Positions 9,161-63,281 are shown, counted from the stretch's first letter. The stretch: 64,000 bases of DNA from an uncultured Candidatus Saccharibacteria bacterium (GCA_964574655.1 CAZNOH010000001.1:201852-265851); one strand, 5' to 3'. Notes: generated from the letters alone by a model not told the origin. Numbers and translations are program-made.

Positions 9161-9180
9161 ATTGTTCTTTACAACAAGAG

Positions 9181-9250
9181 GATCCACCTACGCTTGCGAG
9201 CTTTGGTGGATAAGTCCGCCTTCGTCCTGTGGGACTTTGGCGGACAAGGG
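9181..9250 (+). repeat. GGCGGACAAG hairpin/leader element, copy A
   Basis: ccacc..ggtgg and gtccgcc..ggcggac stems, followed by a purine-rich SD and an ATG. Homologous copies occur at 12211-12262, 12396-12447 and 17885-17950. Confidence 0.5.
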
Positions 9251-9260
9251 AGAAAAGGAA

Positions 9261-48692: not shown

Positions 48693-48838
48693 TGTCCAAG
48701 AAACAAGAAACAAACAAATCTCAAATTAAAATAACCAATTACCAAACTCGTCGTCGAAGGGTTTGATTATTGGTTATTGAATATTGGAATTTGTTTGTAT
48801 TTTGTATCTTGGTTATTAAATCTTATTTATAAATCATT

Positions 48839-49678
48839 ATGATAGTTTCATCACAAATCTTGTTAAAAAAGGCACAGCAAGGTCATTATGCAATTGGTGC
48901 TTTTAATACTTCTGATTTAGAAATTACAAAAGGAATTGTGGTAGCAGCTGAAGAGTTGAATGCGCCAATAATTTTGCAGACTTCTGAAGGCGAAATAAAG
49001 CATGCAGGATCTGAAGTATTTTTTGATTCAATGAAAATTTTTGCTGAGAAATCAAAAGCACAAATTAATTTAAATTTAGATCATGGAAAAAGTTTTGAAA
49101 TGTGCAAATGGGCAGTAGATAGCGGTTATAATTCTGTAATGATTGATGGATCTAGATTATTTTTAGATGAAAATATAAAACTAACAAAACAAGTCGTTGA
49201 TTACGCGCATTCTAAAAGCGTAGTTGTTGAAGGCGAGATTGGTCTTGTTCCTACTCCTAGCAAAGGCGAAGATGTTAGAATTTTAAAAGCTGATTCAGTT
49301 GAATGCAAAAAATTTATAGAAGAAACTGGTGTTGATTTTTTAGCAGTTGGCATTGGTAATGTTCATGGTGAAAATAAAGGTCAGCCAGTTTTGGATTTTG
49401 AAAGATTAAAAGAAATTAAAGAAGTCGTTGATGTGCCTTTAGTGTTACATGGCGGATCAGGTATTTCTGATGATGATATAAAAAAAGCTGTGTCTTTAGG
49501 AATTTGTAAGATTAATGTTAATACGGAATTGCGTCAGGCTTTTGCTAAGGCTTTGCGGGAAACTTTGGAAGATAAAGATGTAATCAAGCCTTATGATATT
49601 ATGGATCCGGTTGAGGATCGTATTAAAGAAGTTGTAATGAAAAAGATTGAAATTTTTGGAAGTAAAAATAAGGCGTAG
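48839..49678 (+). CDS. fba: Class II fructose/tagatose-bisphosphate aldolase
   Basis: GAFN, LDHG and VLHGGSG motifs. Confidence 0.85.
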   Translation: MIVSSQILLKKAQQGHYAIGAFNTSDLEITKGIVVAAEELNAPIILQTSEGEIKHAGSEVFFDSMKIFAEKSKAQINLNLDHGKSFEMCKWAVDSGYNSVMIDGSRLFLDENIKLTKQVVDYAHSKSVVVEGEIGLVPTPSKGEDVRILKADSVECKKFIEETGVDFLAVGIGNVHGENKGQPVLDFERLKEIKEVVDVPLVLHGGSGISDDDIKKAVSLGICKINVNTELRQAFAKALRETLEDKDVIKPYDIMDPVEDRIKEVVMKKIEIFGSKNKA

Positions 49679-49781
49679 ATATTTGGGATATTACTGATAT
49701 TAAGATATTCGGAAATTATTACCCAACTTTAGTTGGGGTTCGGTAAGCTTTAGTTTGCAGATATTTTAAGTAGTAAAAAAT

Positions 49782-50156
49782 ATGAATATCGAAAAAAAAG
49801 GGAAAGAATTATATAGCCAATATGAAACTACAAGAAGAATGATGGAGTCATCCAAATTTTATGCTGACGTATATAATCAATGGAAAGGTTGTACAGGTTT
49901 TGGCGGTAGAACGAAAGATTGGGTTCAAGAACTAAAGCCGATGACACAATATGAAGAAAGAATTAGAGCTACAGCTGATCAGGAAGAAGCACAAATAATT
50001 CTTGATTTAAGCGATCCAGAAAGGGTTGTAGCTTATAATCAACTCGTTGATGAATTTAATGCTGACTTAGAAAGGATTCGAGAAACTAAAGATCAAAAAG
50101 CAGCCCAAGATTATATGTCTAAAGCAATAGCTATAATTTATAATCAATCAAAGTAA
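49782..50156 (+). CDS. Hypothetical protein
   Basis: 124-aa ORF. Confidence 0.35.
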   Translation: MNIEKKGKELYSQYETTRRMMESSKFYADVYNQWKGCTGFGGRTKDWVQELKPMTQYEERIRATADQEEAQIILDLSDPERVVAYNQLVDEFNADLERIRETKDQKAAQDYMSKAIAIIYNQSK

Positions 50157-50196
50157 AAGTATTTGCGATTGCCTTTAATCAAAAGTATTAGAAAAT

Positions 50197-50288
50197 TCTA
50201 CCTGGCTTTAGCCAAGGGGTTGGAGAGCCTTAGCTCTCATTTCTTGTGAACTAAAGTTCATGAACCCCTTGGCTAAAGCCAGGTAGAA
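50197..50288 (+). repeat. 92-nt three-hairpin palindromic element, copy 1 (ncRNA or MITE-like candidate)
   Basis: A perfect 26-bp outer inverted repeat (ttctacctggctttagccaaggggtt / aaccccttggctaaagccaggtagaa) encloses two inner hairpins, gagagc-ctta-gctctc and tgaact-aa-agttca. Confidence 0.6.
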
Positions 50289-50303
50289 ATATCTGAATTT
50301 AGT

Positions 50304-51350
50304 ATGACCAAAACAAATTTTTTAGAATTGATAAATTTTTTACAAAAAAACCATAAAGTCTATGGGCCGGTTTTGGATAGGTCTGGCAGATTATTAGTAA
50401 AAGAAATTAAGGATCCAGAAAAAATAATTTTGAATGGCAGATTAACACATTATTCTTTTAAAAATTTATTTTTGCCATCTCATGAAACTTTATTTGATTA
50501 TGATCATCAAAAATTGAAAGAGCCAAATTTAAGCTATAAAAAACAAGCAATTGTTGGAATGACAATATCCGATTTGGAGGCTTTAGAATTATATGATCAA
50601 GTATTCGTAAAAGATCCATATTATCAGGAAAGACGAAGACAGACTTTAGTTATTGGATATAGTTTAGCGGGTAAAAAAAGTTTTTCTGAGGAATTAATTT
50701 ATGAACAGCAGTTTGAAGAAGATATTTTAGAACATGTGAAGTTTGATGTGTTTTGCGAATTGCGCGAATCTGGAACGAATGACACTAATAATTCTAGTGA
50801 TTTTTGTAAGGTTTTTGCTGGATCGGAGAATGGAATTAAGATTTTGGATGGATTTGGGTATAAGGATTATGAAAATATAAAATATGTTGGGCCAATTAGA
50901 GAACCCGCCTTTGCTTCCGAAGAGGCTGTGGTGGGCAAGGGAGGGTTGGATAAGACAATGATGGCGGTTTATAATAAAATGAGAAAAGGCTATGCCAAAA
51001 AAGTTTGGGAAGATATTGGAAAAAGGTGTATAGAGTGCGGACAATGTACTCTGGTTTGTCCAACTTGTTATTGTTTTAGAATTGATGATGAGCCAAGCTT
51101 GGATAGAGGAAAAGGCAAAAGAGTAAGATGCTGGGATGCTTGTATGTATCATGAATTTTCGGAAATTTCTGGAAAGACAAGATTATTAAAAAGTACTGAA
51201 CAGAGGATGTGGTTTTGGTTTTATCATAAATTTGTTAGAATTCCAGAAAAATATAAAATACCAGGATGTGTTAAATGTGGAAGATGCTCTCGTGTTTGTC
51301 CGGTTGATATTGATTTTATGAAGGTGCTACAAGACATTTTGAAGAGTTGA
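50304..51350 (+). CDS. Group-3 [NiFe] hydrogenase (sulfhydrogenase-type) beta subunit, a 2x[4Fe-4S] protein (AsrA-like)
   Basis: CIECGQCTLVCPTCYC and CVKCGRCSRVCP cluster motifs. Gene context with the gamma and NiFe subunit genes. Confidence 0.6.
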   Translation: MTKTNFLELINFLQKNHKVYGPVLDRSGRLLVKEIKDPEKIILNGRLTHYSFKNLFLPSHETLFDYDHQKLKEPNLSYKKQAIVGMTISDLEALELYDQVFVKDPYYQERRRQTLVIGYSLAGKKSFSEELIYEQQFEEDILEHVKFDVFCELRESGTNDTNNSSDFCKVFAGSENGIKILDGFGYKDYENIKYVGPIREPAFASEEAVVGKGGLDKTMMAVYNKMRKGYAKKVWEDIGKRCIECGQCTLVCPTCYCFRIDDEPSLDRGKGKRVRCWDACMYHEFSEISGKTRLLKSTEQRMWFWFYHKFVRIPEKYKIPGCVKCGRCSRVCPVDIDFMKVLQDILKS

Positions 51351-51467
51351 AAATCAGCTGAATTGATTTTAGAGTTTTGCTAAATAATTTAGTGTTAAAT
51401 TGTTCAATTGCTAGATTGTTAACGTAAAATCGTTGTAGCAATTTAACAATGTAGCAATTTAACAATT

Positions 51468-52310
51468 TTGATGTTTAATCCATATCAAACAAAATTGGTT
51501 GTAATAAAAAGAGTAATTAAAGAATCTTCTGATGTAAAAAGATTTGTTTTGGAATTTGAAAATAAGTTAGATAAAGAAAATTTTGATTTTATACCAGGAC
51601 AGTTTATTAAGGTTTCAATTCCAGGCTTATGCGATGCGCCGTTTACTTTTGGTTCTAGTCCAAAAAATAGAGATAATTTTGAAATTGCAGTTAGGGGAGT
51701 TGGAAATTTGACCAATTTTCTGAATAGAATGCAAATAGGACAAAAAATAGGAATAAGAGGACCGTATGGAAATGGTTTTCCAATGGATTTAATTAAGAAA
51801 AGAAATACTTTGATTGTGTCTGGCGGTTGTGGTTTTGTGCCTTTTAAATCGATGATAGAAGATTATCTAATTGACAAAAAAAGTTATAAATCTAAGTTCC
51901 AAATTTTTTACGGAGCGAGGTCTTTTGACGAGCTGTTGTTTAAAAGAGATTTTGAAAAATGGGAAAGTAGCGGTATAGATTTAAAGATAACTGTTGATAA
52001 GAATGATGAGAAGTGTGATATTTCTAAATATGGTTGCAATGTTGGTTTGGTAACTGAATTAATTAAAAATGAGGATTTGGTAGAAAAACCAGTTGTCTTG
52101 GTTTGTGGTCCGTCAATAATGGTAAAATTTGTAGTAATGGAATTAGATAAACTGTCTATCCCCCATTCTGATATTTTTGTTTCGTTAGAGGGAAGAATGG
52201 AATGCGGAATAGGAGTGTGTGAGCATTGCGCAATTGGTCCTTATTATGTTTGCAAAGATGGACCAGTGTTTAGTTGGGATAAGATTGAATGGATTCCAAA
52301 CATAGTTTGA
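51468..52310 (+). CDS. Hydrogenase gamma subunit: FAD/NAD(P)-binding oxidoreductase with a C-terminal [2Fe-2S] (AsrB/PyrK-like)
   Basis: FNR-like fold (RxYS-type motif, GGCG) and a C-terminal CGIGVCEHCAIG. Confidence 0.6.
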   Translation: MMFNPYQTKLVVIKRVIKESSDVKRFVLEFENKLDKENFDFIPGQFIKVSIPGLCDAPFTFGSSPKNRDNFEIAVRGVGNLTNFLNRMQIGQKIGIRGPYGNGFPMDLIKKRNTLIVSGGCGFVPFKSMIEDYLIDKKSYKSKFQIFYGARSFDELLFKRDFEKWESSGIDLKITVDKNDEKCDISKYGCNVGLVTELIKNEDLVEKPVVLVCGPSIMVKFVVMELDKLSIPHSDIFVSLEGRMECGIGVCEHCAIGPYYVCKDGPVFSWDKIEWIPNIV

Positions 52311-52411
52311 AGTAAAAATTAAAAAGTAAAAAGGTAAAGGTTGCAAGTAAAAAGTAAAAAGTTACGCGACGATTTTTTTACTTTTTAATTTTAACTTTTG
52401 ACTTTTTTAAC

Positions 52412-53695
52412 ATGTGTTTAACAATGCCTGGAAAAGTAAGTAAAATTAATGGAAACTTTGCGATAGTTGAGGGAAATTTTGGATTGAGAAGTGTCAATAT
52501 TATGGCATTAGGAAAAATTAAGATTGGTGATTGGCTTTTGGCGACAACTGGTTTAGCTGTTAAAAAAATTAATGAAAACGAGGCGCAGGAATTAATTGAT
52601 TTATTGAAAAGTCATGATGCGGTTGACAGCAACAAGATAGATAAAAAATTATTGAATGTTTTAGAAAATGCAAGAAAAAGGAATTTGAATAGAGACGAGA
52701 TTGTTTTTTTATTAAGTTTAAAAAAAAAGAAAGATATTGAGGCTTTGTTTTCAGAAGCTGATGTGATTAGAAAAAGTTATTTAAAAGATTTTATATGCAT
52801 TCATGGCATAATTGAATTTTCAAATTATTGTGAGAATAATTGTTCATATTGCGGATTGAGATTTGAAAATAAGAAATTAAAAAGATACAGAATGTCTTTT
52901 AAGGAGATTGTTGAAGTAATTGATGAAGCAGTAAATAAAATAGGTTATAAAATGTTGGTATTGCAGAGCGGAGTTGATAAAGGATGGAGCGATGCGAAAT
53001 TAATTGAATTAATAAAATTGATTAAAAAAAAGCATCGAGTTTTTATTCTGATAAGTATTGGTGAACGGAGTTTGGAATGTTATAGAAAGATGAAAAAAGC
53101 AGGAGCTGATGGAGTTTTGTTTAGATTTGAGACAGCAAATAAAGATCTTTATCACAAATTGCATTTATCTAAGACATTGAAAGGCAATTTTAAGAAGCGA
53201 TTAAAATTAATTGGTGAATTAAAGAAAATGGGTTATTATATTTCTTCAGGGTCAATGATTGGATTACCTGGTCAAACAATTGGTGATTTGGCAAACGATG
53301 TTTTAATGATGAAAAAGTTGAAAGTAGGAATGGTCTCAATGGGTCCCTTTGTCCCATGTAAAAATACTCCATTTGAGAAAGAAAAAAAAGCTGAAACGAT
53401 GTTGAGTTTGAAAATGATAGCTATTTGTCGTATTTTAATGAAAGAAGCAAGGATACCAATTACTTCTGCTTTAGAGACAATTGGAGGCGAAGAGATTAGG
53501 AAAAAAGGATTGAGCTGTGGTGCGAATTCATTGATGTTCAATCTAACACCGCAAAAATATAGAAAAGATTATAAAATTTACAATAACAAATTTTATGGGA
53601 GAAACAAGAAATTAGAGAGAGCAGCTTTATTTCAGAATGAAGATAGCTGGAGGATGATCGAGCAAGAGTTTAGAAAAAAAATAGATAAATTTTGA
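52412..53695 (+). CDS. Fusion protein: N-terminal HypC/HupF-type [NiFe]-hydrogenase chaperone domain (about 75 aa) plus a radical-SAM HydE [FeFe]-hydrogenase maturase
   Basis: Starts MCLTMPGKV..GDWLL..G.A..KINENEA (the HypC signature with Cys2). The rest aligns along its length with HydE: IIEFSNYCENNCSYCGLR, KRYRM, LQSG, ETAN, GSMIGLPGQT, MGPFVP, CGANS. Confidence 0.7.
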   Translation: MCLTMPGKVSKINGNFAIVEGNFGLRSVNIMALGKIKIGDWLLATTGLAVKKINENEAQELIDLLKSHDAVDSNKIDKKLLNVLENARKRNLNRDEIVFLLSLKKKKDIEALFSEADVIRKSYLKDFICIHGIIEFSNYCENNCSYCGLRFENKKLKRYRMSFKEIVEVIDEAVNKIGYKMLVLQSGVDKGWSDAKLIELIKLIKKKHRVFILISIGERSLECYRKMKKAGADGVLFRFETANKDLYHKLHLSKTLKGNFKKRLKLIGELKKMGYYISSGSMIGLPGQTIGDLANDVLMMKKLKVGMVSMGPFVPCKNTPFEKEKKAETMLSLKMIAICRILMKEARIPITSALETIGGEEIRKKGLSCGANSLMFNLTPQKYRKDYKIYNNKFYGRNKKLERAALFQNEDSWRMIEQEFRKKIDKF

Positions 53696-53699
53696 GTAT

Positions 53700-55070
53700 A
53701 TGCTAATAATAGATCAGAGAAAAATTAAAGAGTTTTTAGATAATAAGAAAAACGTAGATGAAGATGAGGCAAAGCAGATTGTTAAAAAAGCAAAAAAAAA
53801 GAAAGGTCTTAATTTAGCAGAAGTGGCGATTTTATTGAATGTTAATGATGAGAAGTTAATTGCTGAAATGTTTAAGGCGGCGATTGAAATAAAAAAAGCG
53901 ATATATGGGAATAGATTGGTTCTATTTGCGCCACTATATATTTCGAACTATTGCGTTAATGATTGTGAATATTGTAGCTTTCATATTCGAAACAAAGCGT
54001 CAAGAAAAAAATTAACCTTGGATGAGGTTAGAAAACAAGTTGAAATTTTGGAAGATATGGGCCACAAGAGACTGCTTTTAGAATTTGGCGAAGATCCCAT
54101 TAATAATCCAATTGATTATGTGGTTGATGTAATAAAAACAATATATAATGTAAAAAGGGGTAATGGATCGATTAGAAGAGTGAATATTAATATAGCAGCA
54201 ACAACCGTCGAAAATTATAAAAAAATAAAAGAAGCTGGAATTGGAACTTACCAGCTTTTTCAAGAAACTTATCATCAACCAACCTATAAAAAATTGCATT
54301 GCGGTCCTAAAGCTGACTATGAACGGCAAATTACGGCTTTAGATCGAGCTTTTCAAGCGGGAATTGATGATTTAGGAATCGGTGTTTTATTCGGACTTTA
54401 TGATTATAAATTTGAAGTTTTAAGTTTGCTAATGCATGCCCAATATCTGGAAAAGAAGAATGGCGTAGGGCCTCATACAATTTCCGTACCGAGATTTCAG
54501 TCTGCAATGACTGTTGATTATAAGTCTAGATATAAAGTTTCCGATAAAGCTTTTTTAAAACTAGTAGCGATCTTGAGAATGGCAGTCCCATATACGGGAA
54601 TAATAATGTCAACCAGGGAAACTCCAGAGATTCGTAGAAAAGCGTTTGAAATTGGCGTATCACAAACTAGTGCAGGATCAAAAACTGCGCCAGGAGGATA
54701 TCTGAAAAAATCAAAAACTAGTGATTTGCAACAATTTTCTTTGCATGATAAAAGGTCACTGGATGAAGTTGTTTGTGATATTTGCGGGCTTGGATATTTA
54801 CCAAGTTTTTGCACAGCATGTTATCGTGTCGGGCGGACAGGCGATCAATTTATGGAATATGCAAAATCAGGAAAAATTCAGAGATTTTGTCAACCTAACG
54901 CGATAATGACTTTAAAGGAATATTTAGTTGATTATGCATCAAAAGATACAAAGAAAGCAGGTGAAGAATTGATTAATAGTGAATTAAAAAAGATGGATGT
55001 GAAAAAAAGAGCTTTGTTTAAGAGAAAGCTAAAATTGATCGAACAAGGAAAGAGGGATATATATATTTAG
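53700..55070 (+). CDS. Radical-SAM HydG (tyrosine lyase producing CO/CN ligands), [FeFe]-hydrogenase maturase type
   Basis: N-terminal PLYISNYCVNDCEYC (CX3CX2C) and a C-terminal CTACYRVGRTGDQFMEYAKSGKIQRFC, which is an exact CX2CX22C auxiliary-cluster motif. That motif separates HydG from ThiH. Confidence 0.7.
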   Translation: MLIIDQRKIKEFLDNKKNVDEDEAKQIVKKAKKKKGLNLAEVAILLNVNDEKLIAEMFKAAIEIKKAIYGNRLVLFAPLYISNYCVNDCEYCSFHIRNKASRKKLTLDEVRKQVEILEDMGHKRLLLEFGEDPINNPIDYVVDVIKTIYNVKRGNGSIRRVNINIAATTVENYKKIKEAGIGTYQLFQETYHQPTYKKLHCGPKADYERQITALDRAFQAGIDDLGIGVLFGLYDYKFEVLSLLMHAQYLEKKNGVGPHTISVPRFQSAMTVDYKSRYKVSDKAFLKLVAILRMAVPYTGIIMSTRETPEIRRKAFEIGVSQTSAGSKTAPGGYLKKSKTSDLQQFSLHDKRSLDEVVCDICGLGYLPSFCTACYRVGRTGDQFMEYAKSGKIQRFCQPNAIMTLKEYLVDYASKDTKKAGEELINSELKKMDVKKRALFKRKLKLIEQGKRDIYI

Positions 55071-55191
55071 AATTCATTATTTGTAAAATGAAGACGAAAT
55101 TTAATGTCCAATCTAAGTAAAAAATAGCAATGTTTTTTATGATTTTGTAAATAAGCGTTCTTTTTAAATTTCAAGGTAAAGGAGGAGAAAG

Positions 55192-55866
55192 ATGAGCAGC
55201 AATGATGGTTTGATTGAAGCAGCAAGATTTTCGTGGAATTGTTGTCCAGAAAATAGAGTTCTTTGCGATGGATTATACGGCTTTGTTGGAGGAAATGGCG
55301 GGCATGATGTTGCATGGATTCGAGGTCAACTAAAAAGTCTTTATTCATATTTTTATTATCTGTTGATTGCTAGGCAAAATGGAATTTCTGATCCTTTTGA
55401 TTTGCGAGTTGTTCAGGCACATTGGATTGGCAATGATTTGTTGAGGGTTGTGAAAGCTAGCGATGTTAAAGAATTATTATCAGCTACTAAAGAATTGAGC
55501 GCATTGCCGAGAGAAAAAGAAACGATGATGAGGTGGTTATTGAGCAAGCTTGTAAAATTAGGATCTTATCCTCATCATAGTTTTTATGCAACTGTTTATG
55601 AAAAGTTGAATCCCGCACTTGTCCGTCAAGGAAAAAGATGTTTTATAGACTGCGGCAAAGTGTTGGAATTGGAAGACGATCATTTTCTTATCGAAGTCAA
55701 TGGAGTTACGAGAAAATGCGGTTATGGTTTTCTGAAAGGAAAGATTGAAGTTGGAGATTTGGTTTTTATCCATTTGAATGAGGGTTGCAGGGTTGCAACT
55801 TTAGATGAAAAAACAAAATTAGATGATTGGTTTGTTGCTACAGAATGTACATTAAGGTTGCTTTAA
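55192..55866 (+). CDS. Hypothetical hydrogenase-cluster protein with 9 Cys; the C-terminal part has a weak HypC-barrel-like pattern
   Basis: Strong SD aaaggaggagaaag. Position between hydG and the NiFe small-subunit gene. No P-loop, so it is not HydF. Confidence 0.4.
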   Translation: MSSNDGLIEAARFSWNCCPENRVLCDGLYGFVGGNGGHDVAWIRGQLKSLYSYFYYLLIARQNGISDPFDLRVVQAHWIGNDLLRVVKASDVKELLSATKELSALPREKETMMRWLLSKLVKLGSYPHHSFYATVYEKLNPALVRQGKRCFIDCGKVLELEDDHFLIEVNGVTRKCGYGFLKGKIEVGDLVFIHLNEGCRVATLDEKTKLDDWFVATECTLRLL

Positions 55867-55923
55867 TTTAGATCCTTGATCTTTAATCATTGTGGTTAGA
55901 GATTTTTAACCTAAATTGAAATA

Positions 55924-56688
55924 ATGGAACAACAAAAATTAAAAGTAGCAATGGTTTCTTTGACTTCCTGCGAAGGATGTTATTTTAGCTTGCTTGATTT
56001 AGGAAATGAATTTTTAGAAATTGCTGACAAAATTGATTTAGTTAAATTTCGATTATTTGAAGAAAAAGAGCATTCTGAAAATGAAAAATATGATCTTGCG
56101 TTTGTGGAAGGCAGTCCGATTTCTAAAGAGAATTTTGATAAGTTGATTAATTTGAGATTGAGAACTAAAAAATTAATTATTTTGGGTGGATGTGCTCATA
56201 CTGGTGGAACATATGCAATGCGAAATCATACTGACAAAAAGAAAGCTTGTAAATATGTTTATCCTAAAACTAATAAAAAAGTTTTTAATCCAAAAATTTT
56301 AGAACTTTCTAAAGTTGTAAAAATTGACGGAATTATTCCAACTTGTCCGGTTAATCCTAGAGAATTTGTTAGATTTATGTCTTTTATCTTGAATAGTTTA
56401 ACGTTTAAAATTGTTGAAAGGCCAGTCTGTCATGAATGCCAATTAGCAGAGACTCCTTGTTTATTAAAAATGGGATTGCCTTGTTTTGGGCCAATGGCTC
56501 TTGGAGGTTGTGATGCGCCTTGTCCTCAAGCAGGAATGCCTTGTCAATTATGTCGTGGACCAATGAAAGAGATTGTTTGGGAAAATTTTGAAAAGAAAAT
56601 GAAAGAAATAATGGGTGCTGAAGTTTGGGAAAAAGATTATCATGAAATACTCGAGATTTTTAATGTGAAGGATAAAATTAATTGTTAA
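55924..56688 (+). CDS. [NiFe] hydrogenase small subunit, group 3 type (delta subunit; no Tat signal)
   Basis: N-terminal KVAMVSLTSCEGCYFSLLD, and more FeS Cys in the C-terminal half (CPVNPREF.., CHECQ, CFGPM..GGCDAPCP). Confidence 0.75.
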   Translation: MEQQKLKVAMVSLTSCEGCYFSLLDLGNEFLEIADKIDLVKFRLFEEKEHSENEKYDLAFVEGSPISKENFDKLINLRLRTKKLIILGGCAHTGGTYAMRNHTDKKKACKYVYPKTNKKVFNPKILELSKVVKIDGIIPTCPVNPREFVRFMSFILNSLTFKIVERPVCHECQLAETPCLLKMGLPCFGPMALGGCDAPCPQAGMPCQLCRGPMKEIVWENFEKKMKEIMGAEVWEKDYHEILEIFNVKDKINC

Positions 56689-56722
56689 ATTGTTTTATTG
56701 TTAAATCGTTAAATATTATTTT

Positions 56723-57052
56723 ATGGAAATTAAACAAGAGATTAAAAAACCAGAAGCTGTTAAAATAATTGTTGAAGATAACGGTAAAATTGTTGGCAGA
56801 GCTTATTTATATTTGATTAATAATGATTTGCATAAAGAGCCTTATGGATTGTTGGAGGATGTTTTTGTTGAAGAAAATCAAAGAGGAAAAGGAACTGGTA
56901 CGAAATTAGTTCAGGCAGTAATTGATGAAGCTAAGAAAAGAGATTGTTATAAATTAATTGCAACTAGTAGGAAATCAAGAGAGCAAGTACACGAATGGTA
57001 TTTGAAATTTGGTTTTGAAGATTATGGTTGTGAATTTAGGATGGAGTTATAA
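56723..57052 (+). CDS. GNAT-family N-acetyltransferase (small, 109 aa)
   Basis: Q/RxxGxG/A motif in NQRGKGTGTKLV. Confidence 0.5.
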   Translation: MEIKQEIKKPEAVKIIVEDNGKIVGRAYLYLINNDLHKEPYGLLEDVFVEENQRGKGTGTKLVQAVIDEAKKRDCYKLIATSRKSREQVHEWYLKFGFEDYGCEFRMEL

Positions 57053-57082
57053 AGTTGTAAAGTTTTTAAAGTTATAAAGTAA

Positions 57083-58387
57083 ATGAAAAAAATAATAAAA
57101 ATAAATCATCTAGCTAAAATGGAAGGGCATGCTTCGTTTGAAGGCAAGATTTTGGCAGGAAGAATTTTAGAAGCGCATATTATTACAGAAGAAGGCGCAA
57201 GATTAATTGAGGGAACATTGGTAGGCAGACATTATTCTGAAGCGTCGACGATTACTTCCAGAATTTGTGGGATCTGTCCAATTGTTCATCATCTAACAGC
57301 TGTGAAAGCTTTGGAAGAATGTTTTGATGTTAAAGTCAGCTCTGAAACTATAATGCTTAGAAAAGTTTTGGAATTAGCGCAAATAATTCATAGCCATACT
57401 TTGCATCTTTTCTTTTTGTCTTTACCTGATTTTTTGAATTATGATGATACAAAAAAGATGGCAGGTAGATATCCTAATGAAGCGCAGATGGCAATTGATA
57501 TTCGGAAATGGGCGACTGATTTATGTTTAGTAATTGGTGGTAGAATTACACATCCTTTGACAAATATGGTAGGCGGATTTAGGAAATGGCCCGAAGAAGA
57601 AAATTTAGAAAAATTTTTAGATGGTTCTGGTGATATTTTGGAGATGGCATTAAAAATCGCCCAATTATTTAGAGATTTAGATTATCCAAAGTTTGATAAT
57701 CTAGGAAACTTTATTGCGTTATCAAATGATACTGAATATGCAATCTATGAAGGCGAAGTTAAAATTTGGGAGACAAAGAAAAATTTAGCTAAAAAAATAT
57801 TTGGCAAGCAAATGAAAGGAATAAGTGCAACGAAATTTATTAAGAAAATTAAAGAAATAGAATTGCAAAATGAATTGGTAAAAAGAGTGAAGTATAATGG
57901 AAAGTCTTTTTTTTGTGGAGCATTAGCAAGGATTAATATCAATAAATATCTGTTGAATGAAGAGTCTTCAAAATTTTTAGAAACAACAAATATTGATTTT
58001 CCAACAGATAATACTTTTTATAATGTTTTAGCTCAAGCTGTTGAGGTTATTCATTGTGTTGAAGAAATCAGAAATTTATTGAGAGAATTAAAGAAGATAA
58101 ATTGGTTGAAGGCTAAAAATACGAGTTTTAAAATTAAGGCTGGCAAAGGAGTGGCTGCAATTGAGGCGCCGAGAGGGACTTTGTATCATTATTATGAAAC
58201 TGATAAAGATGGATATATTAAAAACTGTAATATAATTACGCCAACAGCGCAGTTTTTGGCAAAATTAGAAGATGATTTGAGTGTGTTTTTATCTGATGTT
58301 AAAAATTTGCCGGATTTGGAAAGAAAAAATAAAATAAAAATGATGATAAGGGCGTTTGATCCGTGTATTAGTTGCGCTACGCACTAA
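57083..58387 (+). CDS. [NiFe] hydrogenase large subunit (alpha), ending at the Ni-site His with no C-terminal extension
   Basis: N-terminal RICGICPIVHH (RxCGxC) and C-terminal DPCISCATH followed directly by a stop codon. Confidence 0.85.
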   Translation: MKKIIKINHLAKMEGHASFEGKILAGRILEAHIITEEGARLIEGTLVGRHYSEASTITSRICGICPIVHHLTAVKALEECFDVKVSSETIMLRKVLELAQIIHSHTLHLFFLSLPDFLNYDDTKKMAGRYPNEAQMAIDIRKWATDLCLVIGGRITHPLTNMVGGFRKWPEEENLEKFLDGSGDILEMALKIAQLFRDLDYPKFDNLGNFIALSNDTEYAIYEGEVKIWETKKNLAKKIFGKQMKGISATKFIKKIKEIELQNELVKRVKYNGKSFFCGALARININKYLLNEESSKFLETTNIDFPTDNTFYNVLAQAVEVIHCVEEIRNLLRELKKINWLKAKNTSFKIKAGKGVAAIEAPRGTLYHYYETDKDGYIKNCNIITPTAQFLAKLEDDLSVFLSDVKNLPDLERKNKIKMMIRAFDPCISCATH

Positions 58388-58419
58388 TTTTACAAATACA
58401 AAAAATAATTTAAAATATT

Positions 58420-58851
58420 ATGAAAAAACAAAATAGAAAAAAAATAAACAAGGATGTTACAGTCAGAAGTTTATCAGAAAAAATTGATAAGCGTTTTGAG
58501 CAAGTTGATAAGCGTTTTGATAAGATGATGAAAGTAATGGATAATAGATTTGGTGAGTTGTATAGTTTTTTACAAAAACACATGGTAACAAAAGAGGAAT
58601 TTAATGAAAGATTGTTGAAGTTGGAAAACAGAATTGAGAATATTGAACAAAATTATTCAACGAAGGATGATTTATTGAAAGTAAAAGATGAACTTTTGAC
58701 ATTAATGGATAAAATTATTAATGATTATAAAAAAGATAAACAAGAACATGCTTTTTTCAGTTATCATCTGGAAAGAATTGCAAAATTAGAATATCGGATT
58801 GATAAAATAGAGGGTAAGAAAGTTAAAGACTTAAAATTTACAAATGCATGA
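58420..58851 (+). CDS. Hypothetical coiled-coil protein
   Basis: 143 aa with heptad-like charged repeats. Confidence 0.35.
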   Translation: MKKQNRKKINKDVTVRSLSEKIDKRFEQVDKRFDKMMKVMDNRFGELYSFLQKHMVTKEEFNERLLKLENRIENIEQNYSTKDDLLKVKDELLTLMDKIINDYKKDKQEHAFFSYHLERIAKLEYRIDKIEGKKVKDLKFTNA

Positions 58852-59101
58852 CTTTCATGCGGCGGACAATTTATTAAAGATGGCACTTGAACATGCAAAG
58901 AAAAATAAACTGAGAAAAGTTGACAAAATTAAAATTGAATTAGGAAAATTTGTTGAGCATGGGCAAGAAATATTAGCAGATAATTTGAAATTTAATATTA
59001 AAATGTTGGCTAAAGGTACGATTGCTAAAAATGCAGAAATTGTTATTATTGAGAAACAAGGTGAAAGAGGCTATGAATTAGTAGAGATTGAAGGAGAATA
59101 G
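58844..59101 (+). CDS. Minimal HypA-like nickel metallochaperone lacking the zinc-finger domain
   Basis: MHDFHAADNLLKMALEHAKK parallels the HypA MHE-Ni site plus helix. The C-terminal YELVEIEGE parallels the HypA end. There are no Cys at all (HypA normally has CxxC..CxxC). Confidence 0.45.
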   Translation: MHDFHAADNLLKMALEHAKKNKLRKVDKIKIELGKFVEHGQEILADNLKFNIKMLAKGTIAKNAEIVIIEKQGERGYELVEIEGE

Positions 59102-59103
59102 AT

Positions 59104-59132
59104 GTAGAGACGTCCAATTTGGGCGTCTGTAC
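59104..59132. repeat. GTAGAGACG hairpin element, copy 5
   Basis: gtagagacgtccAATTTgggcgtctgtac. Confidence 0.55.
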
Positions 59133-59147
59133 TTAAAGATTTAAAGT

Positions 59148-60311
59148 ATGAATAAAAAAACAATCAAAGATATTGATGTCAAAAATAAAACAGTTTTAGT
59201 CAGAGCTGATTTTAATGTACCAATTAAAGATGGTAAGATTCTTGACGATTTTAAAATTAAAAAAAGCCTTGATACTATAAATTATTTGATTAAAAATAAT
59301 GCGAAAATTGTTTTGATGTCGCATTTGGGAAAGCCAAAAGGAAAGGTTGTTGAAGATTTAAGATTAGATTCGATTGCGAAAAGATTAAGTGAAATGTTAG
59401 AAAAAAAAGTTGAAAAATTAAATGACTGTATAGGGCAGGAAGTTAATGATAAGGTTAAGCAGGCGAAATTAGGTGATGTGATATTGTTAGAGAATGTTCG
59501 TTTTCATCCTGAAGAAGAGAAAAATGATCCAGAATTTGCTAAGAAATTGGCGAGTTTGGGAGAAATTTTTTGTGAAGATGGGTTTGGATCAGTACATCGC
59601 GCTCATGCATCTGTTTCAGGAATTGCTAAATTTTTGTCAGCTGTTGCAGGATTATTGTTGGAAAAAGAAGTTGATGTTTTGACAGAAGTTTTAGAGAAGC
59701 CAGATCATCCATATTTAGTGATTTTAGGTGGAGCAAAGATTTCAACAAAATTAAATTTGATTAATAAGCTAGCAAAACAGGCGGACAAGCTTTTGGTTGC
59801 AGGTGCATTGTCTAATACTATTTTTCTGGCGAATGGCGTGAATGTTGGCGGATCAATCGTGGAAAAAGAAATGCTAGAGCAAATTAAAAATACAGTTTTA
59901 AAAAATACTAACATTGATATTCCGATTGATGTAATTGTCGGAAAAGATAATGGCGATGGGACGAGAACTGTTGATATTGGGAATGGAATAAGCAGCGATG
60001 AATTTATTTATGATATTGGACCGAAAACAATTGATTTGTTTAAGAGAAAAATTGATAAAGCGAGATTAGTTGTTTGGAATGGGCCAATGGGAAAATTTGA
60101 GAATAAAAAATTTGCAAAAGGTACTGAGAATATTGCAAAAGAATTGGTAAGAGTTAAAAAAGCAGTTGTTGGCGGAGGAGAGACTTCAATGGCAATTCGA
60201 AAATTAGGCTTAGAAGATAAAATTTATTTTTTATCTACTGGTGGGGGAGCAATGCTGGAGTTTTTAGAGGGAAAACTAATGCCGGGAATAGAGTGCTTAT
60301 TAGATAAATAA
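59148..60311 (+). CDS. pgk: Phosphoglycerate kinase
   Basis: RADFNVP, and GGGA in the C-terminal domain. Confidence 0.95.
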   Translation: MNKKTIKDIDVKNKTVLVRADFNVPIKDGKILDDFKIKKSLDTINYLIKNNAKIVLMSHLGKPKGKVVEDLRLDSIAKRLSEMLEKKVEKLNDCIGQEVNDKVKQAKLGDVILLENVRFHPEEEKNDPEFAKKLASLGEIFCEDGFGSVHRAHASVSGIAKFLSAVAGLLLEKEVDVLTEVLEKPDHPYLVILGGAKISTKLNLINKLAKQADKLLVAGALSNTIFLANGVNVGGSIVEKEMLEQIKNTVLKNTNIDIPIDVIVGKDNGDGTRTVDIGNGISSDEFIYDIGPKTIDLFKRKIDKARLVVWNGPMGKFENKKFAKGTENIAKELVRVKKAVVGGGETSMAIRKLGLEDKIYFLSTGGGAMLEFLEGKLMPGIECLLDK

Positions 60312-60325
60312 AATTAATAATATTT

Positions 60326-61567
60326 ATGAAAATAATTAAGATTAGAGCCCGAGAAATTCTTGACTCAAGAGGTGAGCCAACTGTGGAAGTGCGTGTTGAT
60401 TTAGATGGCGGTAAATTTGGCATTGCTAGAGTTCCTTCTGGTGCTTCAACAGGAAAATATGAAGTATTAGAATTGAGAGATAAAGATAAAAAAAGATATG
60501 GCGGGAAAGGAGTGTTGAGAGCTTGCAAAAATGTTAATGATATTATTTCGCAAAGGCTGGTTGGATTATATGCAGATAAGCAAGAAAAAATTGATCGGAC
60601 TTTGATTGCATTAGATGGGACAAAAAATAAATCAAAATTAGGAGCAAATGCGATTCTTGGCGTGTCATTAGCATGTTGTGTAGCAGCAGCTAATTCTAAA
60701 GAAATCGAACTATATCAGTATATCGGCGAAATTTTTGGCAATGATAATTTTGTAATGCCGCAAGCATATTTTAATATTATCAATGGTGGAAAACATGCTG
60801 ACTCTGGATTAGATGTCCAGGAATTTATGATTGTGCCAAAAGCAGTTAATTTTTATGAAAAAGTGAGAGTTGGTTCAGAAATTTTTCATGCTTTGAAAGA
60901 TATTTTGCAAAGAAGAGAATATTCAATTAGTGTTGGTGACGAGGGTGGTTTTGCACCGAAATTAGATAGCAATGAACATGCAATTGAAACTATTTTGAAG
61001 GCAATCGAAGAGGCAGGATATAAGCCAGGAGCTGATGTAAATATTGCTTTAGATGTTGCTGCTTCTTCTTTCTATAGTAAGGAGAAGGGATATTGTTTGA
61101 ATTCTGGCAAGTGCATTGAATCAGATCATTTAATAGCGATGTTTTCGGATTGGATTAGCAAATATCCAATAAAAAGCATTGAAGATCCTCTCGCTCAAGA
61201 TGATTGGGAAGGTTTTAAAAAAATTACTGAAAAGTTAGGAGATAAAATTCAAATAATTGGTGATGATTTGTTTGTAACAAACATTGAAAGAGTAAAAAAA
61301 GGTATTGTTGAAAATTGCGCAAATTCTGTTTTGATAAAACCAAATCAAATTGGTACTTTGACGGAAACTTTTGAATGTATAAAATTAGCAAAATCAAAAG
61401 GCTATGCAACAATGGTTTCGCATCGTTCTGGCGAGACAACTGATACTTTTATTGCTGATCTTTGTGTTGGAACTAATGCCGCACAGATCAAGTCTGGTTC
61501 CTTGTCTCGTGGTGAAAGAGTTTGCAAATATAATCGGTTGATGGAGATTGAGGAGAAGCTTAAATAA
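60326..61567 (+). CDS. eno: Enolase
   Basis: ILDSRGEPTVEV, SHRSGETTD and IKPNQIGT motifs. Confidence 0.95.
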   Translation: MKIIKIRAREILDSRGEPTVEVRVDLDGGKFGIARVPSGASTGKYEVLELRDKDKKRYGGKGVLRACKNVNDIISQRLVGLYADKQEKIDRTLIALDGTKNKSKLGANAILGVSLACCVAAANSKEIELYQYIGEIFGNDNFVMPQAYFNIINGGKHADSGLDVQEFMIVPKAVNFYEKVRVGSEIFHALKDILQRREYSISVGDEGGFAPKLDSNEHAIETILKAIEEAGYKPGADVNIALDVAASSFYSKEKGYCLNSGKCIESDHLIAMFSDWISKYPIKSIEDPLAQDDWEGFKKITEKLGDKIQIIGDDLFVTNIERVKKGIVENCANSVLIKPNQIGTLTETFECIKLAKSKGYATMVSHRSGETTDTFIADLCVGTNAAQIKSGSLSRGERVCKYNRLMEIEEKLK

Positions 61568-61691
61568 TTTTTAATTTATAATTTCAAATTTTAAATAAAT
61601 TTTAAAATATTAATTTCAAAAATGTTTTTTGACGTTTGTTTTAAAATTATATTATTTAAAATTCAATTAAAATTTAAAATTTAAAATTTTT

Positions 61692-63281
61692 ATGATATAT
61701 AAACAAGCAGTTTTAATCATTTTGGATGGATTTGGTATTGCTCCACCAAGCAAGGGAAATTGTGTTATGCAAGCAAAGATGCCATATTATAATGAGTTAC
61801 TAAAAAATTATACTCATACAACAATTCAAGCTTCTGGCGAGGAAGTTGGTTTGCCATGGAGGGATATGGGAAATTCAGAAGTTGGTCATGGCAATTTGGG
61901 AGCAGGCAGAATTTCTTATCAAAGCTTGCCATTAATAAATACAGCAATTTTAAATAAGACTTTTTTTAAAAATGAAGCTTTAATGGGTGCGATTGAGCAT
62001 GTTAAAAAAAATAAGAGTAGTTTACATCTGATGGGTTTGGTCAGCTCTGGGGGTATTCATGCGCATATTGAACACTTGTTTGCGTTATTGAAATTAGCTA
62101 AGCAGAATAAAATAAAAAAAGTATATATTCATTGTTTTATGGATGGTAGAGATATGCCAAAGGATTCAGGCATAGATATGATTACAAAAATTGAAGAAGA
62201 AACGAGCGGATGGTTTTCAGTTGGCAAAATTGCAACAATGAGCGGTAGATATTATGTAATGGATCGTGATGATAATTGGGACAGAGTTGAAAAAGCTTAT
62301 AATGCGATGGTCGGAGCGTCGGAGCGTCGGAGCGTCGGAGCGTCGGAACCAAAGTTTTTTGCGAATCCAATTACGGCAATTAAAGATTCTTATGCTCACA
62401 AAGTTTATGATGAGCAGGTGGAGCCAGTTGTGATTGGAACAAAAGAAAAACCAGTAGCTAAGATTTCTAAAGGCGATTCAATAATATTTTTTAATTATAG
62501 AACTGATCGAGCCAGGCAAATTACTGAAGCTTTTGTTAGCGATGATTTTAAAGGTTTTAAACGTGAAAAAATAGAAGATTTATTTTTTGTTTGTTTTACA
62601 GAATATAAAAAAGGATTATGCAAAAATATTGCCTTTCAGCAGAAAGAAACTCCAAATGGTTTGTCAGAAACAATTAGCAAAAATAATTTAAAACAATTTC
62701 ATGTTGCAGAGACAGAAAAGTTTGCGCATGTGACTTTCTTTTTTAATTGCGGACAAGAAGAACCTTTTGCAGGAGAAATTCACAAAGTTGTAGCCTCGCC
62801 AAAAGTAGAATCTTATGACCAGAAACCAGAAATGTCGGCGCAAGGTGTAACTGAAGAAGTAATGAAAGCAATAAAAGAAAAATATAATTTTATCTTAATT
62901 AATTTCGCTAATCCAGATATGGTCGGGCATACCGGAAATATTTCTGCAACAATAAAGGGTTTGGATTTTGTTGATTCTTGTTTAAAAAAAATTGTGACAG
63001 AAGTTTTGAATAATAATGGCGTTGTAGTTTTGACAGCTGATCATGGTAATTGCGAGGAAAAAATTAATCTGCAAACTAGTAAATCAGAGAAACAACATAC
63101 TGCAAATCCAGTGCCTTTGATTTTAATTGGCAAAGGATTGGAACGAAAATCTGATAATACTGATTTGAGCTTGGAATCACCGACTGGAGCTTTAGCTGAT
63201 GTGGCGCCAACAATTTTAGCATTAATGGGAATTGAAAAACCGGTAGAGATGATAGGAATTGATTTAACTAAAGCGATATAA
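61692..63281 (+). CDS. gpmI: 2,3-bisphosphoglycerate-independent phosphoglycerate mutase (iPGM) carrying an internal GASERRSV repeat insertion
   Basis: iPGM motifs (LILDGFG, MGNSEVGH, ADHGN) and the full 529-aa length. Confidence 0.9.
   Translation: MIYKQAVLIILDGFGIAPPSKGNCVMQAKMPYYNELLKNYTHTTIQASGEEVGLPWRDMGNSEVGHGNLGAGRISYQSLPLINTAILNKTFFKNEALMGAIEHVKKNKSSLHLMGLVSSGGIHAHIEHLFALLKLAKQNKIKKVYIHCFMDGRDMPKDSGIDMITKIEEETSGWFSVGKIATMSGRYYVMDRDDNWDRVEKAYNAMVGASERRSVGASEPKFFANPITAIKDSYAHKVYDEQVEPVVIGTKEKPVAKISKGDSIIFFNYRTDRARQITEAFVSDDFKGFKREKIEDLFFVCFTEYKKGLCKNIAFQQKETPNGLSETISKNNLKQFHVAETEKFAHVTFFFNCGQEEPFAGEIHKVVASPKVESYDQKPEMSAQGVTEEVMKAIKEKYNFILINFANPDMVGHTGNISATIKGLDFVDSCLKKIVTEVLNNNGVVVLTADHGNCEEKINLQTSKSEKQHTANPVPLILIGKGLERKSDNTDLSLESPTGALADVAPTILALMGIEKPVEMIGIDLTKAI
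62311..62347 (+). repeat. Coding microsatellite: GC-rich 8-mer (tcggagcg) repeated 4.6 times
   Basis: tcggagcg x4 + tcgga, read directly from the sequence. It encodes GASERRSVGASERRSVGASE. Confidence 0.85.

What the first reader, a model, noticed from the sequence alone, without database searches (positions are those of the whole stretch)
55192..55866. Cys-rich orphan ORF with a strong SD between hydG and the NiFe small subunit
It is 224 aa with no recognisable family. It has 9 Cys including NCCPENRVLC, RCFIDCGK, RKCGYG and EGCRV.

Its C-terminal 60 aa show a HypC-like beta-barrel residue pattern (IEVNG.....KIEVGDLVFIHLNEGCRV).

It has a canonical GGAGG SD, unlike most neighbouring genes. Its position suggests a scaffold or carrier role, perhaps substituting for HydF or HypD.
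Basis: inference. Interest (0 to 1): 0.55.

Follow-up and report, generated by a model that had tools for sequence, protein, structure and literature searches.

The report
HypC-like hydrogenase maturation accessory protein (DUF6390)
The "orphan" ORF is a real, conserved gene of the uncharacterised Pfam family DUF6390: an unknown-fold helical domain joined to a HypC-like domain, with four near-invariant Cys/His residues, found beside hypC in [NiFe]-hydrogenase gene clusters of several phyla, so it is most likely an unstudied hydrogenase-maturation helper.

Summary
The ORF (55192-55866, +, 224 aa) and its GGAGG Shine-Dalgarno are real. It has 8 Cys, not 9, and it is not family-less: it passes Pfam's threshold for DUF6390.

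Cys150 and His194 align with the HypC residues Cys2 and His51. The N-terminal 147 residues model confidently as an all-helical domain with no relative among solved structures.

Across about 140 distant relatives only His129, Cys150 and His194 (99-100%) and Cys17 (92%) are kept. Shortened 165-174-aa relatives keep all four while the barrel shrinks.

The gene sits directly after hypC inside [NiFe]-hydrogenase clusters in Patescibacteria, Chloroflexota, Actinomycetota and Sulfobacillus. The closest relatives of this operon have neither hydE nor hydG. In Mycobacterium and Sulfobacillus the family lies next to hypD, hypE and hypF. So it is not a general substitute for HypD or HydF.

Best reading: a hydrogenase-maturation accessory protein that binds a metal, probably the active-site iron, and works with HypC. 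This is inferred, not shown.

Separately, the neighbouring HypC-HydE fusion plus HydG recurs next to group 3b [NiFe]-hydrogenase genes in other lineages. That hints at a radical-SAM route to the iron's CO and CN ligands.

The parts
55181..55185 (+). GGAGG Shine-Dalgarno core, six bases before the ATG
   Evidence: Read directly. Only 6 of 69 likely genes in the window have a 5-mer SD core. Relatives lack this spacer because their gene overlaps or abuts the hypC stop codon.
55192..55866 (+). DUF6390-family gene, 224 aa
   Evidence: ORF listing. Pfam PF19927 at 48.7 bits against cut-off 25. 517 relatives. AlphaFold2 model with pLDDT 95 and pTM 0.92.
55192..55632 (+). N-terminal all-helical domain (residues 1-147) with no known structural relative
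   Evidence: Ten helices in the model. Modelled alone, pLDDT is 91.7. Best Foldseek match in the PDB has E 4.8 and probability 0.03. The family profile finds no PDB sequence for this part.
55633..55863 (+). C-terminal HypC-like beta-barrel plus helix (residues 148-224)
   Evidence: Pfam HupF_HypC E 2.8e-4, below threshold. hhalign against a HypC alignment gives probability 96.6%, E 5.5e-10. Foldseek top hits are 2z1c, 3vyr and 3vyt, TM 0.73-0.89 normalised to HypC. Family profile against PDB: HypC at 7e-5.
55240..55242 (+). Cys17 codon, candidate metal ligand
   Evidence: Cys in 129 of 140 relatives. Kept in the shortened forms.
55573..55578 (+). His128-His129 codons, candidate ligand
   Evidence: His129 is invariant (140 of 140) and His128 is present in 81%.
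55639..55641 (+). Cys150 codon, aligned with HypC Cys2
   Evidence: Invariant in 140 of 140. Aligned with the 'MC' start of HypC.
55771..55773 (+). His194 codon, aligned with HypC His51
   Evidence: His in 138 of 140. Aligned with the His of the HypC 'VHVG' motif.
52412..53695 (+). HypC (residues 1-65) fused to HydE, the upstream partner gene
   Evidence: Pfam HupF_HypC 56.5 bits plus Radical_SAM. TIGR03956 HydE scores 280.7 against cut-off 254.6. CX3CX2C motif at residue 140. The top 120 homologues all share the fused architecture.
53700..55070 (+). HydG radical SAM tyrosine lyase
   Evidence: TIGR03955 scores 612.7 against cut-off 312. CX3CX2C at residue 85 and C-terminal CX2CX22C at residue 371.
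50304..52310 (+). Group 3b hydrogenase beta (Fe-S) and gamma (FAD/NAD) subunits
   Evidence: Pfam Fer4_22, and FAD_binding_6 / NAD_binding_1 / DHODB_Fe-S_bind.
55924..56688 (+). [NiFe]-hydrogenase small (delta) subunit
   Evidence: Pfam Oxidored_q6. Best NCBIfam matches are sulfhydrogenase HydD and ShyD.
57083..58387 (+). [NiFe]-hydrogenase large (alpha) subunit
   Evidence: Pfam NiFeSe_Hases. Best NCBIfam matches are ShyA and HydA. RICGIC at residue 60; DPCISCATH forms the C-terminus.
58844..59101 (+). Short HypA (85 aa, no Cys)
   Evidence: Pfam HypA 36.9 bits against cut-off 28.9. An 85-aa orthologue is present in four relatives.

Best explanation
The ORF encodes a DUF6390-family accessory protein of [NiFe]-hydrogenase maturation. 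It has two domains: an N-terminal helical domain of unknown fold and a C-terminal HypC-type beta-barrel.

The barrel keeps the two residues aligned with the two that HypC is reported (from my knowledge of the literature) to use for iron handling, its Cys2 and His51, here Cys150 and His194. The cysteine is internal rather than N-terminal. The N-domain adds Cys17 and His129. I infer that these four residues form one Cys2His2 metal site at the domain interface.

The most likely mechanism is that the protein binds the iron atom destined for the active site, or its Fe(CN)2CO precursor. It would work together with the HypC encoded just upstream, either loading HypC or holding the iron until it is inserted into the apo large subunit.

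Shown: the gene is real, its family, the fold of both domains, the homology to HypC, the conserved residues, and the genomic association. Inferred: that the four residues bind a metal, that the metal is iron, and the partnership with HypC.
For: Family and fold:
- Pfam DUF6390 above threshold.
- A confident two-domain model.
- The C-domain is homologous to HypC: hhalign 96.6%, E 5.5e-10, with Cys150 aligned to HypC Cys2 and His194 to His51.
- Top Foldseek hits are HypC structures. The family profile hits HypC in the PDB at 7e-5 and real HypC ORFs in related loci.

Conserved residues:
- His129 and Cys150 are invariant, His194 99%, Cys17 92% across 140 diverged relatives. Mean column identity in a 114-sequence alignment of the family is 20%.
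- Shortened relatives of 165-174 aa lose most of the barrel but keep all four residues.

Genomic context:
- HypC lies directly upstream in 48 of 73 genome loci. Stop/start overlaps of 3 or 7 bases are typical.
- Of 36 loci of at least 15 kb, 33 carry hydrogenase-related genes and 28 the large subunit.
- The order hypC-DUF6390-small subunit recurs in four further Patescibacteria-type lineages.
- In Mycobacterium and Sulfobacillus the gene sits inside the hypFCDE block.

Possible division of labour:
- The Patescibacteria-type HypC proteins, free or fused, lack the His51 equivalent, while the DUF6390 C-domain keeps it.
Against: - No coordinates were available, so closeness of the four residues in the model was not measured.
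- No experimental study of any family member was found.
- HypC, as I recall it, depends on its cysteine being N-terminal, which is not the case here, so the chemistry may differ.
- A Cys2His2 site would suit Ni, Zn or a [2Fe-2S] cluster as well as iron.
- 17 of 73 loci have no HypC within 10 kb.
- In many loci the gene is flanked by a family-5 ABC transporter or an EamA transporter, which could point to nickel instead.
- Operons with HypC-HydE and HydG work without DUF6390 in the same locus, so it is not indispensable locally.
Confidence: 0.55

Rival explanations
1. In Patescibacteria, DUF6390 replaces the HypD scaffold. Cys17 would play the part of HypD Cys41 and Cys150 that of HypC Cys2, so Fe(CN)2CO is assembled on this one small protein. 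The CO and CN ligands would come from HydG and HypC-HydE where those are present.
For: - No HypB, HypD, HypE, HypF or maturation protease was found in the 64-kb window or in 275 kb of twelve Patescibacteria-type loci.
- These systems look stripped down. The large subunit has no C-terminal extension in 9 of 10 loci, and HypA is 85 aa with no zinc-site cysteines.
- Their HypC lacks the conserved His.
- The window combines DUF6390 with a bona fide HydG and a HypC-HydE fusion.
Against: - The family coexists with and abuts hypD, hypE and hypF in Mycobacterium and Sulfobacillus. Thermomicrobium roseum, a cultured Chloroflexota member whose own DUF6390 status was not checked, keeps HypDE and HypF in its hydrogenase cluster.
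- The protein has no [4Fe-4S] motif, no CxxC and no similarity to HypD.
- Only about 10 kb either side of each locus was seen, so hypDEF may lie elsewhere.
- The closest relatives have DUF6390 without hydE or hydG.
- The apparent 'one or the other' pattern in Patescibacteria-type loci comes from how the loci were chosen.
Confidence: 0.15
2. DUF6390 is a nickel chaperone or nickel acceptor. Its Cys/His site would take Ni from an adjacent importer and pass it to HypA or the large subunit, doing the work of HypB or SlyD where these are absent.
For: - A family-5 solute-binding protein with two permeases lies next to the gene in 23 of 36 long loci. An EamA transporter lies next to it in 7 of those 36, and also in L001.
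- The Patescibacteria-type operons have HypA but no HypB.
- Cys/His sites are typical of nickel proteins (general knowledge).
Against: - The only detectable homology is to HypC, the iron-side chaperone, including the two residues aligned with HypC Cys2 and His51.
- The tightest linkage is to hypC, not hypA or hypB.
- HypB is present alongside it in 18 of the 80 loci, so it does not simply replace HypB.
- Transporter genes commonly end hydrogenase accessory operons, so adjacency may be incidental.
Confidence: 0.15
3. DUF6390 is a specialised large-subunit chaperone, analogous to the HypC paralogues HupF, HoxL or HybG. It would hold or protect the apo large subunit, and the conserved Cys/His residues would be a structural zinc site or a docking surface rather than a cofactor carrier.
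For: - It has a HypC-type fold.
- It co-occurs with a separate canonical HypC in almost every locus, as the specialised paralogues do (PMC12134894).
- It is common in clusters of oxygen-tolerant hydrogenases of aerobes, including the group-1h-like clusters of Chloroflexota and a Mycobacterium cluster.
Against: - It is also present with the anaerobic group 3b enzyme in Patescibacteria.
- The shortened forms drop most of the barrel, the presumed interaction body, yet keep the four residues. That argues the site, not the barrel surface, is the functional core.
Confidence: 0.13

Closest known systems
HypC / HybG / HupF family of [NiFe]-hydrogenase chaperones (PF01455, TIGR00074)
   Same: The C-terminal domain has the same beta-barrel-plus-helix fold. 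It aligns with the conserved Cys and His, and the gene sits in hydrogenase accessory gene clusters.
   Different: - The cysteine is internal (residue 150), not residue 2.
- A 147-residue domain precedes it.
- Scores are below the family cut-offs: 21.4 against 28.5 bits and 13.5 against 48 bits.
- A separate true HypC is nearly always encoded as well.
Pfam DUF6390 (PF19927), a family of unknown function
   Same: The protein scores above the curated threshold. NCBI already names its 73% relative a 'DUF6390 family protein'.
   Different: The Pfam match covers only residues 53-172. No function, fold or genomic association was found in the literature searched.
HypD, the [4Fe-4S] scaffold on which Fe(CN)2CO is built
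   Same: Possibly analogous in offering a cysteine that faces the HypC-type cysteine.
   Different: No sequence similarity, no Fe-S or CxxC motifs, and about 150 residues shorter. It is encoded next to a real hypD in Mycobacterium.
HydF, the GTPase scaffold of [FeFe]-hydrogenase maturation
   Same: In this window only, the gene follows hydE and hydG, the position a hydF gene might be expected to occupy.
   Different: No GTPase P-loop and no Pfam match. The family is not linked to hydE/hydG in other genomes.
236-aa N-terminally extended HypC-like protein of the Mycobacterium intracellulare plasmid hydrogenase cluster
   Same: The same design principle: a long N-terminal extension before a HypC domain.
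   Different: The N-terminal parts are unrelated. Only the HypC part aligns, at probability 36%. Both proteins occur in the same cluster.

Membership tests
DUF6390 (PF19927) | Score at or above Pfam's gathering threshold (25 bits) | tested here: met
   48.7 bits, E 8.9e-13.
DUF6390 (PF19927) | Full-length similarity to other members | tested here: met
   Profile search hits of 220-250 aa are aligned over positions ~2-220. Pfam precomputed PF19927 on all 8 close hits.
HypC/HybG/HupF (PF01455, TIGR00074) | Score above the curated family thresholds | tested here: not met
   PF01455 21.4 bits against 28.5; TIGR00074 13.5 bits against 48.
HypC/HybG/HupF (PF01455, TIGR00074) | OB-type beta-barrel followed by a C-terminal helix | tested here: met
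   Foldseek: 2z1c, 3vyr, 3vyt and 3vys with TM 0.64-0.89 normalised to HypC, rmsd 1.4 A over 53 residues for 3vyt.
HypC/HybG/HupF (PF01455, TIGR00074) | Cysteine as the first residue after the initiator Met (MC...) | tested here: not met
   The aligned cysteine is residue 150, preceded by a 147-residue domain.
HypC/HybG/HupF (PF01455, TIGR00074) | Conserved histidine equivalent to E. coli His51 | tested here: met
   His194 aligns with it and is kept in 138 of 140 relatives.
HypC/HybG/HupF (PF01455, TIGR00074) | Binds Fe(CN)2CO and interacts with HypD and the apo large subunit | not testable with these tools
   Needs biochemistry.
HypD | Sequence similarity to HypD and its cysteine-rich [4Fe-4S] and CxxC motifs | tested here: not met
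   No tblastn hit with E. coli HypD in the window. phmmer with three HypD sequences found nothing. The protein has no CxxC.
HydF | GTPase domain with a Walker A P-loop | tested here: not met
   No G-x4-GK[ST] motif and no GTPase Pfam match.
[NiFe]-hydrogenase accessory gene (operational class) | Consistent placement within hydrogenase structural and hyp gene clusters across distant taxa | tested here: met
   33 of 36 long loci carry hydrogenase-related genes. Four more Patescibacteria-type lineages and two plasmids agree.

The most novel reading that the evidence does not exclude
Patescibacteria-type group 3b [NiFe] hydrogenases are matured without HypD, HypE and HypF. A minimal kit would do the job: a His-less HypC, DUF6390, a short HypA and, in some lineages, HydG plus a HypC-HydE fusion. 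HydG would supply both CO and CN from tyrosine. DUF6390 would provide the Cys/His iron site on which, or through which, Fe(CN)2CO reaches the large subunit. That would be a second, radical-SAM-based route to the [NiFe] cofactor, and it would give a source for the CO ligand under anoxic conditions.
Probability: 0.15. Interest if true: 0.9.

Novelty: new variant of a known kind. Interest (0 to 1): 0.6.

Why it matters
Current reviews describe [NiFe]-hydrogenase maturation as needing six Hyp proteins. They list the anaerobic origin of the CO ligand and the path of the iron as unresolved (PMC12134894).

DUF6390 is a widespread, tightly hypC-linked protein with a HypC-type domain and an invariant Cys/His set, and no study of it was found. 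It is therefore a concrete, testable candidate for a missing step. It occurs in the clusters of the atmospheric-H2-oxidising enzymes of soil Chloroflexota and in Actinomycetota hydrogenase clusters, as well as in the fermentative enzymes of ultra-small Patescibacteria.

The neighbouring HypC-HydE fusion and HydG tie [FeFe]-type ligand-making enzymes physically to a [NiFe] chaperone. If that link is functional, it crosses a boundary between two maturation systems thought to be separate.

Tried and rejected
- **Literature.** A full-text search for 'DUF6390' returned nothing. Searches for a HypC-HydE fusion or for HydG with [NiFe] enzymes in Patescibacteria found nothing relevant. Searches for M. 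smegmatis locus tags near hypD found no mention of the gene.
- **Genome scan with the 114-sequence alignment.** A 20-sequence subset worked but is biased toward Chloroflexota.
- **Metagenome scan.** It gave only 7 loci.
- **N-domain fold search.** No match. The family profile against PDB sequences hit only HypC.
- **Absence of HypD/E/F within 10 kb in 80 of 80 genome loci.** I do not count this as evidence that HypD is missing. Cultured relatives carry hypDEF, and only 20 kb per genome was seen.
- **'DUF6390 or HydE/HydG, never neither' in Patescibacteria-type loci.** Rejected as evidence, because the loci were retrieved by searching for exactly those proteins.
- **Promoter and terminator scan of the operon.** No terminator lies between hydG and the ORF, and no promoter signal stands out. 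It was uninformative.
- **Model coordinates.** They are not exposed, so distances between the four residues could not be measured.

Full report
**1. The observation**

The ORF exists as described: ATG at 55192, stop ending at 55866, + strand, 224 aa. GGAGG lies at 55181-55185, six bases before the start codon. Such a site is rare here: 6 of 69 likely genes have a 5-mer core, and none of the 16 neighbours checked does.

The protein has 8 cysteines, not 9. Three independent assemblies reproduce the order HypC-HydE, HydG, this ORF, small subunit, so the arrangement is not a mis-assembly.

The window is AT-rich (33% G+C). It carries ribosomal and translation genes (EF-G, EF-Tu, SecY) and glycolysis genes. 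The 73% relative of the ORF is annotated as from a Patescibacteria MAG.

**2. Identity**

The claim of 'no recognisable family' is wrong. Pfam DUF6390 matches at 48.7 bits against a threshold of 25. A sub-threshold HupF/HypC match covers residues 155-206 at E 2.8e-4.

A word-indexed search found 8 relatives at 41-100% identity. A profile built from them found 517 cluster representatives at E <= 1e-3 among 1.84 billion proteins. The family is therefore sizeable and uncharacterised, and no paper in the library mentions it.

**3. Architecture**

AlphaFold2 with a 114-sequence alignment gave a very confident model (pLDDT 95, pTM 0.92). It has ten helices in residues 5-145, then a five-stranded barrel and a long helix in residues 152-221.

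- **C-terminal domain.** Foldseek against the PDB returned HypC structures as the top hits. These were 2z1c, the HypC-HypD complex 3vyr, and the HypC-HypD-HypE complexes 3vyt and 3vys, with TM up to 0.89 normalised to HypC, covering only the C-terminal domain. hhalign of the family's C-terminal region against a 55-sequence HypC alignment gave probability 96.6% and E 5.5e-10. It places Cys150 on the N-terminal 'MC' cysteine of HypC and His194 on the 'VHVG' histidine. The family profile also hits HypC in the PDB (7e-5) and true HypC ORFs in related loci.
- **N-terminal domain.** Modelled alone (pLDDT 91.7), it has no structural relative; the best match has E 4.8.

**4. Conserved residues**

In 140 relatives of 195-275 aa, Cys150 and His129 are invariant, His194 is 99%, Cys17 92% and His128 81%. 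The other six cysteines of this protein are not conserved. A 114-sequence alignment of the family has a mean column identity of 20%.

Relatives of 165-174 aa keep the N-domain and reduce the barrel to roughly 'C-x(9-13)-H-L-G' plus the last helix, retaining all four residues. The conserved core is therefore a Cys/His tetrad, not 'cysteine richness'.

**5. Genomic context**

*Patescibacteria-type relatives.* Relatives at 73, 59 and 44% identity, and a fourth more distant lineage, share this order: beta, gamma, a stand-alone 71-94-aa HypC, DUF6390, small subunit, large subunit. A GNAT gene sits between the subunit genes and an 85-aa HypA follows in the three closer lineages. There is no hydE or hydG. 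In the 73% relative the hypC stop and the DUF6390 start share a base.

In this window, hydE has become fused to hypC and hydG is inserted. This leaves a 121-base gap before DUF6390, and that gap is where the Shine-Dalgarno site lies.

*Genome collection.* A scan returned 576 confirmed matches. The best 80 loci come from Chloroflexota, Actinomycetota, Dormibacterota and Armatimonadota.
- HypC lies directly upstream in 48 of 73 usable loci, typically with 3- or 7-base overlaps.
- 33 of 36 loci of at least 15 kb contain hydrogenase-related genes, and 28 contain the large subunit.
- These clusters look like group 1h. The large subunit is about 600 aa with RICGICGDNH and DPCLPCGVH motifs, and DUF5947, DUF6084 and NifU-Rieske genes are present.
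- A family-5 ABC transporter or an EamA transporter often flanks the gene.

*Annotated plasmids.*
- Mycobacterium intracellulare: hypF, hypC, a 236-aa HypC-like gene, SIS, hypE, hypC, hypD, DUF6390.
- Sulfobacillus acidophilus: hypF, hypC, hypD, hypE, tatA, DUF6390, then a hydrogenase.

**6.

The carrier or scaffold notion and the HypC resemblance stand. Substitution for HydF is not supported: there is no GTPase motif and no linkage to hydE/hydG outside this genome.

Substitution for HypD is refuted as a family-wide statement, because the gene abuts hypD in Mycobacterium. It remains open for Patescibacteria.
- No HypB, D, E, F or protease was detected in the window or in 275 kb of twelve such loci.
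- Nine of ten large subunits end exactly at DPCxxCxxH, with nothing to cleave.
- HypA is 85 aa and lacks the zinc-site cysteines, with no Cys in four of five orthologues.
- HypC lacks the histidine that DUF6390 retains.

Only about 10 kb on each side of each locus was visible, so absence from the genome is not shown.

**7. Mechanism**

I commit to this: DUF6390 is a maturation accessory protein that binds a metal through Cys17, His129, Cys150 and His194 and cooperates with HypC.

Because its only homology is to the iron-side chaperone, including the two residues aligned with HypC Cys2 and His51, iron or the Fe(CN)2CO precursor is the most likely cargo.

- That it is a hydrogenase accessory factor: about 0.85.
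- The specific iron-site mechanism: about 0.4.
- Rivals: a HypD replacement in Patescibacteria, a nickel chaperone suggested by the neighbouring transporters, and a large-subunit chaperone with a structural site.

**8. The neighbours**

HydG here is bona fide: TIGR03955 at 612.7 bits, with both CX3CX2C and the C-terminal CX2CX22C motif. The HypC-HydE fusion is not a one-off. All 120 best homologues, down to 46% identity, share the architecture.

Of seven such loci examined, five have HydG immediately downstream and group 3b hydrogenase genes alongside, including one MAG labelled Deltaproteobacteria. Two have the fusion alone. No [FeFe] hydrogenase or HydF was seen in the window.

A 2025 review of [NiFe] cofactor biosynthesis does not mention HydG or radical SAM enzymes. 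This suggests, but does not show, that HydG-made CO and CN can feed a [NiFe] enzyme through a HypC domain.

**9. Verdict**

The finding is a real gene with a partly correct interpretation. It is a member of a catalogued but unstudied family. The evidence here places that family among [NiFe]-hydrogenase maturation factors, as a new architectural variant of the HypC theme.

Noticed in passing
window 52412-55070; loci L092, L093, L102, L104: A HypC domain fused to HydE, followed by a bona fide HydG, sits inside a group 3b [NiFe]-hydrogenase operon. All 120 best homologues share the fusion, and five of seven loci examined repeat HydG plus the [NiFe] subunits. This may be a radical-SAM route to the [NiFe] iron ligands. 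No literature on it was found.
   Followed up: partly
window 52412-52610; HypC genes of L001, L003, L004, L090, L097: The Patescibacteria-type HypC proteins, free or fused to HydE, lack the conserved histidine (E. coli His51). They have VQN, ATT or EQN in its place, whereas the DUF6390 C-domain keeps it.
   Followed up: partly
window 57083-58387: The large subunit ends exactly at ...DPCISCATH with no C-terminal extension. The same is true in 9 of 10 related loci, and no maturation protease gene lies nearby. Proteolytic processing seems to be skipped.
   Followed up: partly
window 58844-59101: HypA is only 85 aa. It starts MHD and has no cysteine, so it lacks the zinc-binding domain. An 85-aa orthologue is present in four relatives.
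   Followed up: partly
window 56723-57052: A 109-aa GNAT acetyltransferase gene sits between the small- and large-subunit genes. It keeps that position in L001, L003 and L090. Its role is unknown.
   Followed up: no
L097 8226-9914 (- strand): A 562-aa protein fuses a small-subunit-like N-terminus to a large subunit with RICGIC and DPCITCAVH motifs. It lies next to a HypC and a 169-aa shortened DUF6390.
   Followed up: no
window 47931-63281: The hydrogenase operon is embedded among glycolysis genes: tpi and fba upstream, pgk, eno and gpmI downstream. This synteny is kept in L001 and L090.
   Followed up: no
L001 7892-8398 and 6991-7887: One relative carries two DUF6390 genes in tandem, a 168-aa shortened form and the 222-aa form, preceded by an EamA transporter gene inserted after hypC.
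   Followed up: partly
L088 11070-11780: The Mycobacterium plasmid cluster also encodes a 236-aa protein with an unrelated ~180-residue N-terminal extension before a HypC domain. This is a second, independent 'extension plus HypC' design in the same cluster as DUF6390.
   Followed up: partly
window 58420-58851: A 143-aa lysine- and glutamate-rich ORF with no family match lies between the large subunit and hypA. L090 has two unannotated ORFs in the same place.
   Followed up: no
window 51468-51473: The listed TTG start of the gamma subunit is immediately followed by ATG (MMFNPY...). The true start is probably the ATG at 51471.
   Followed up: no
window 9162-10979: A 605-aa ORF has no Pfam match at E <= 1e-5.
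   Followed up: no
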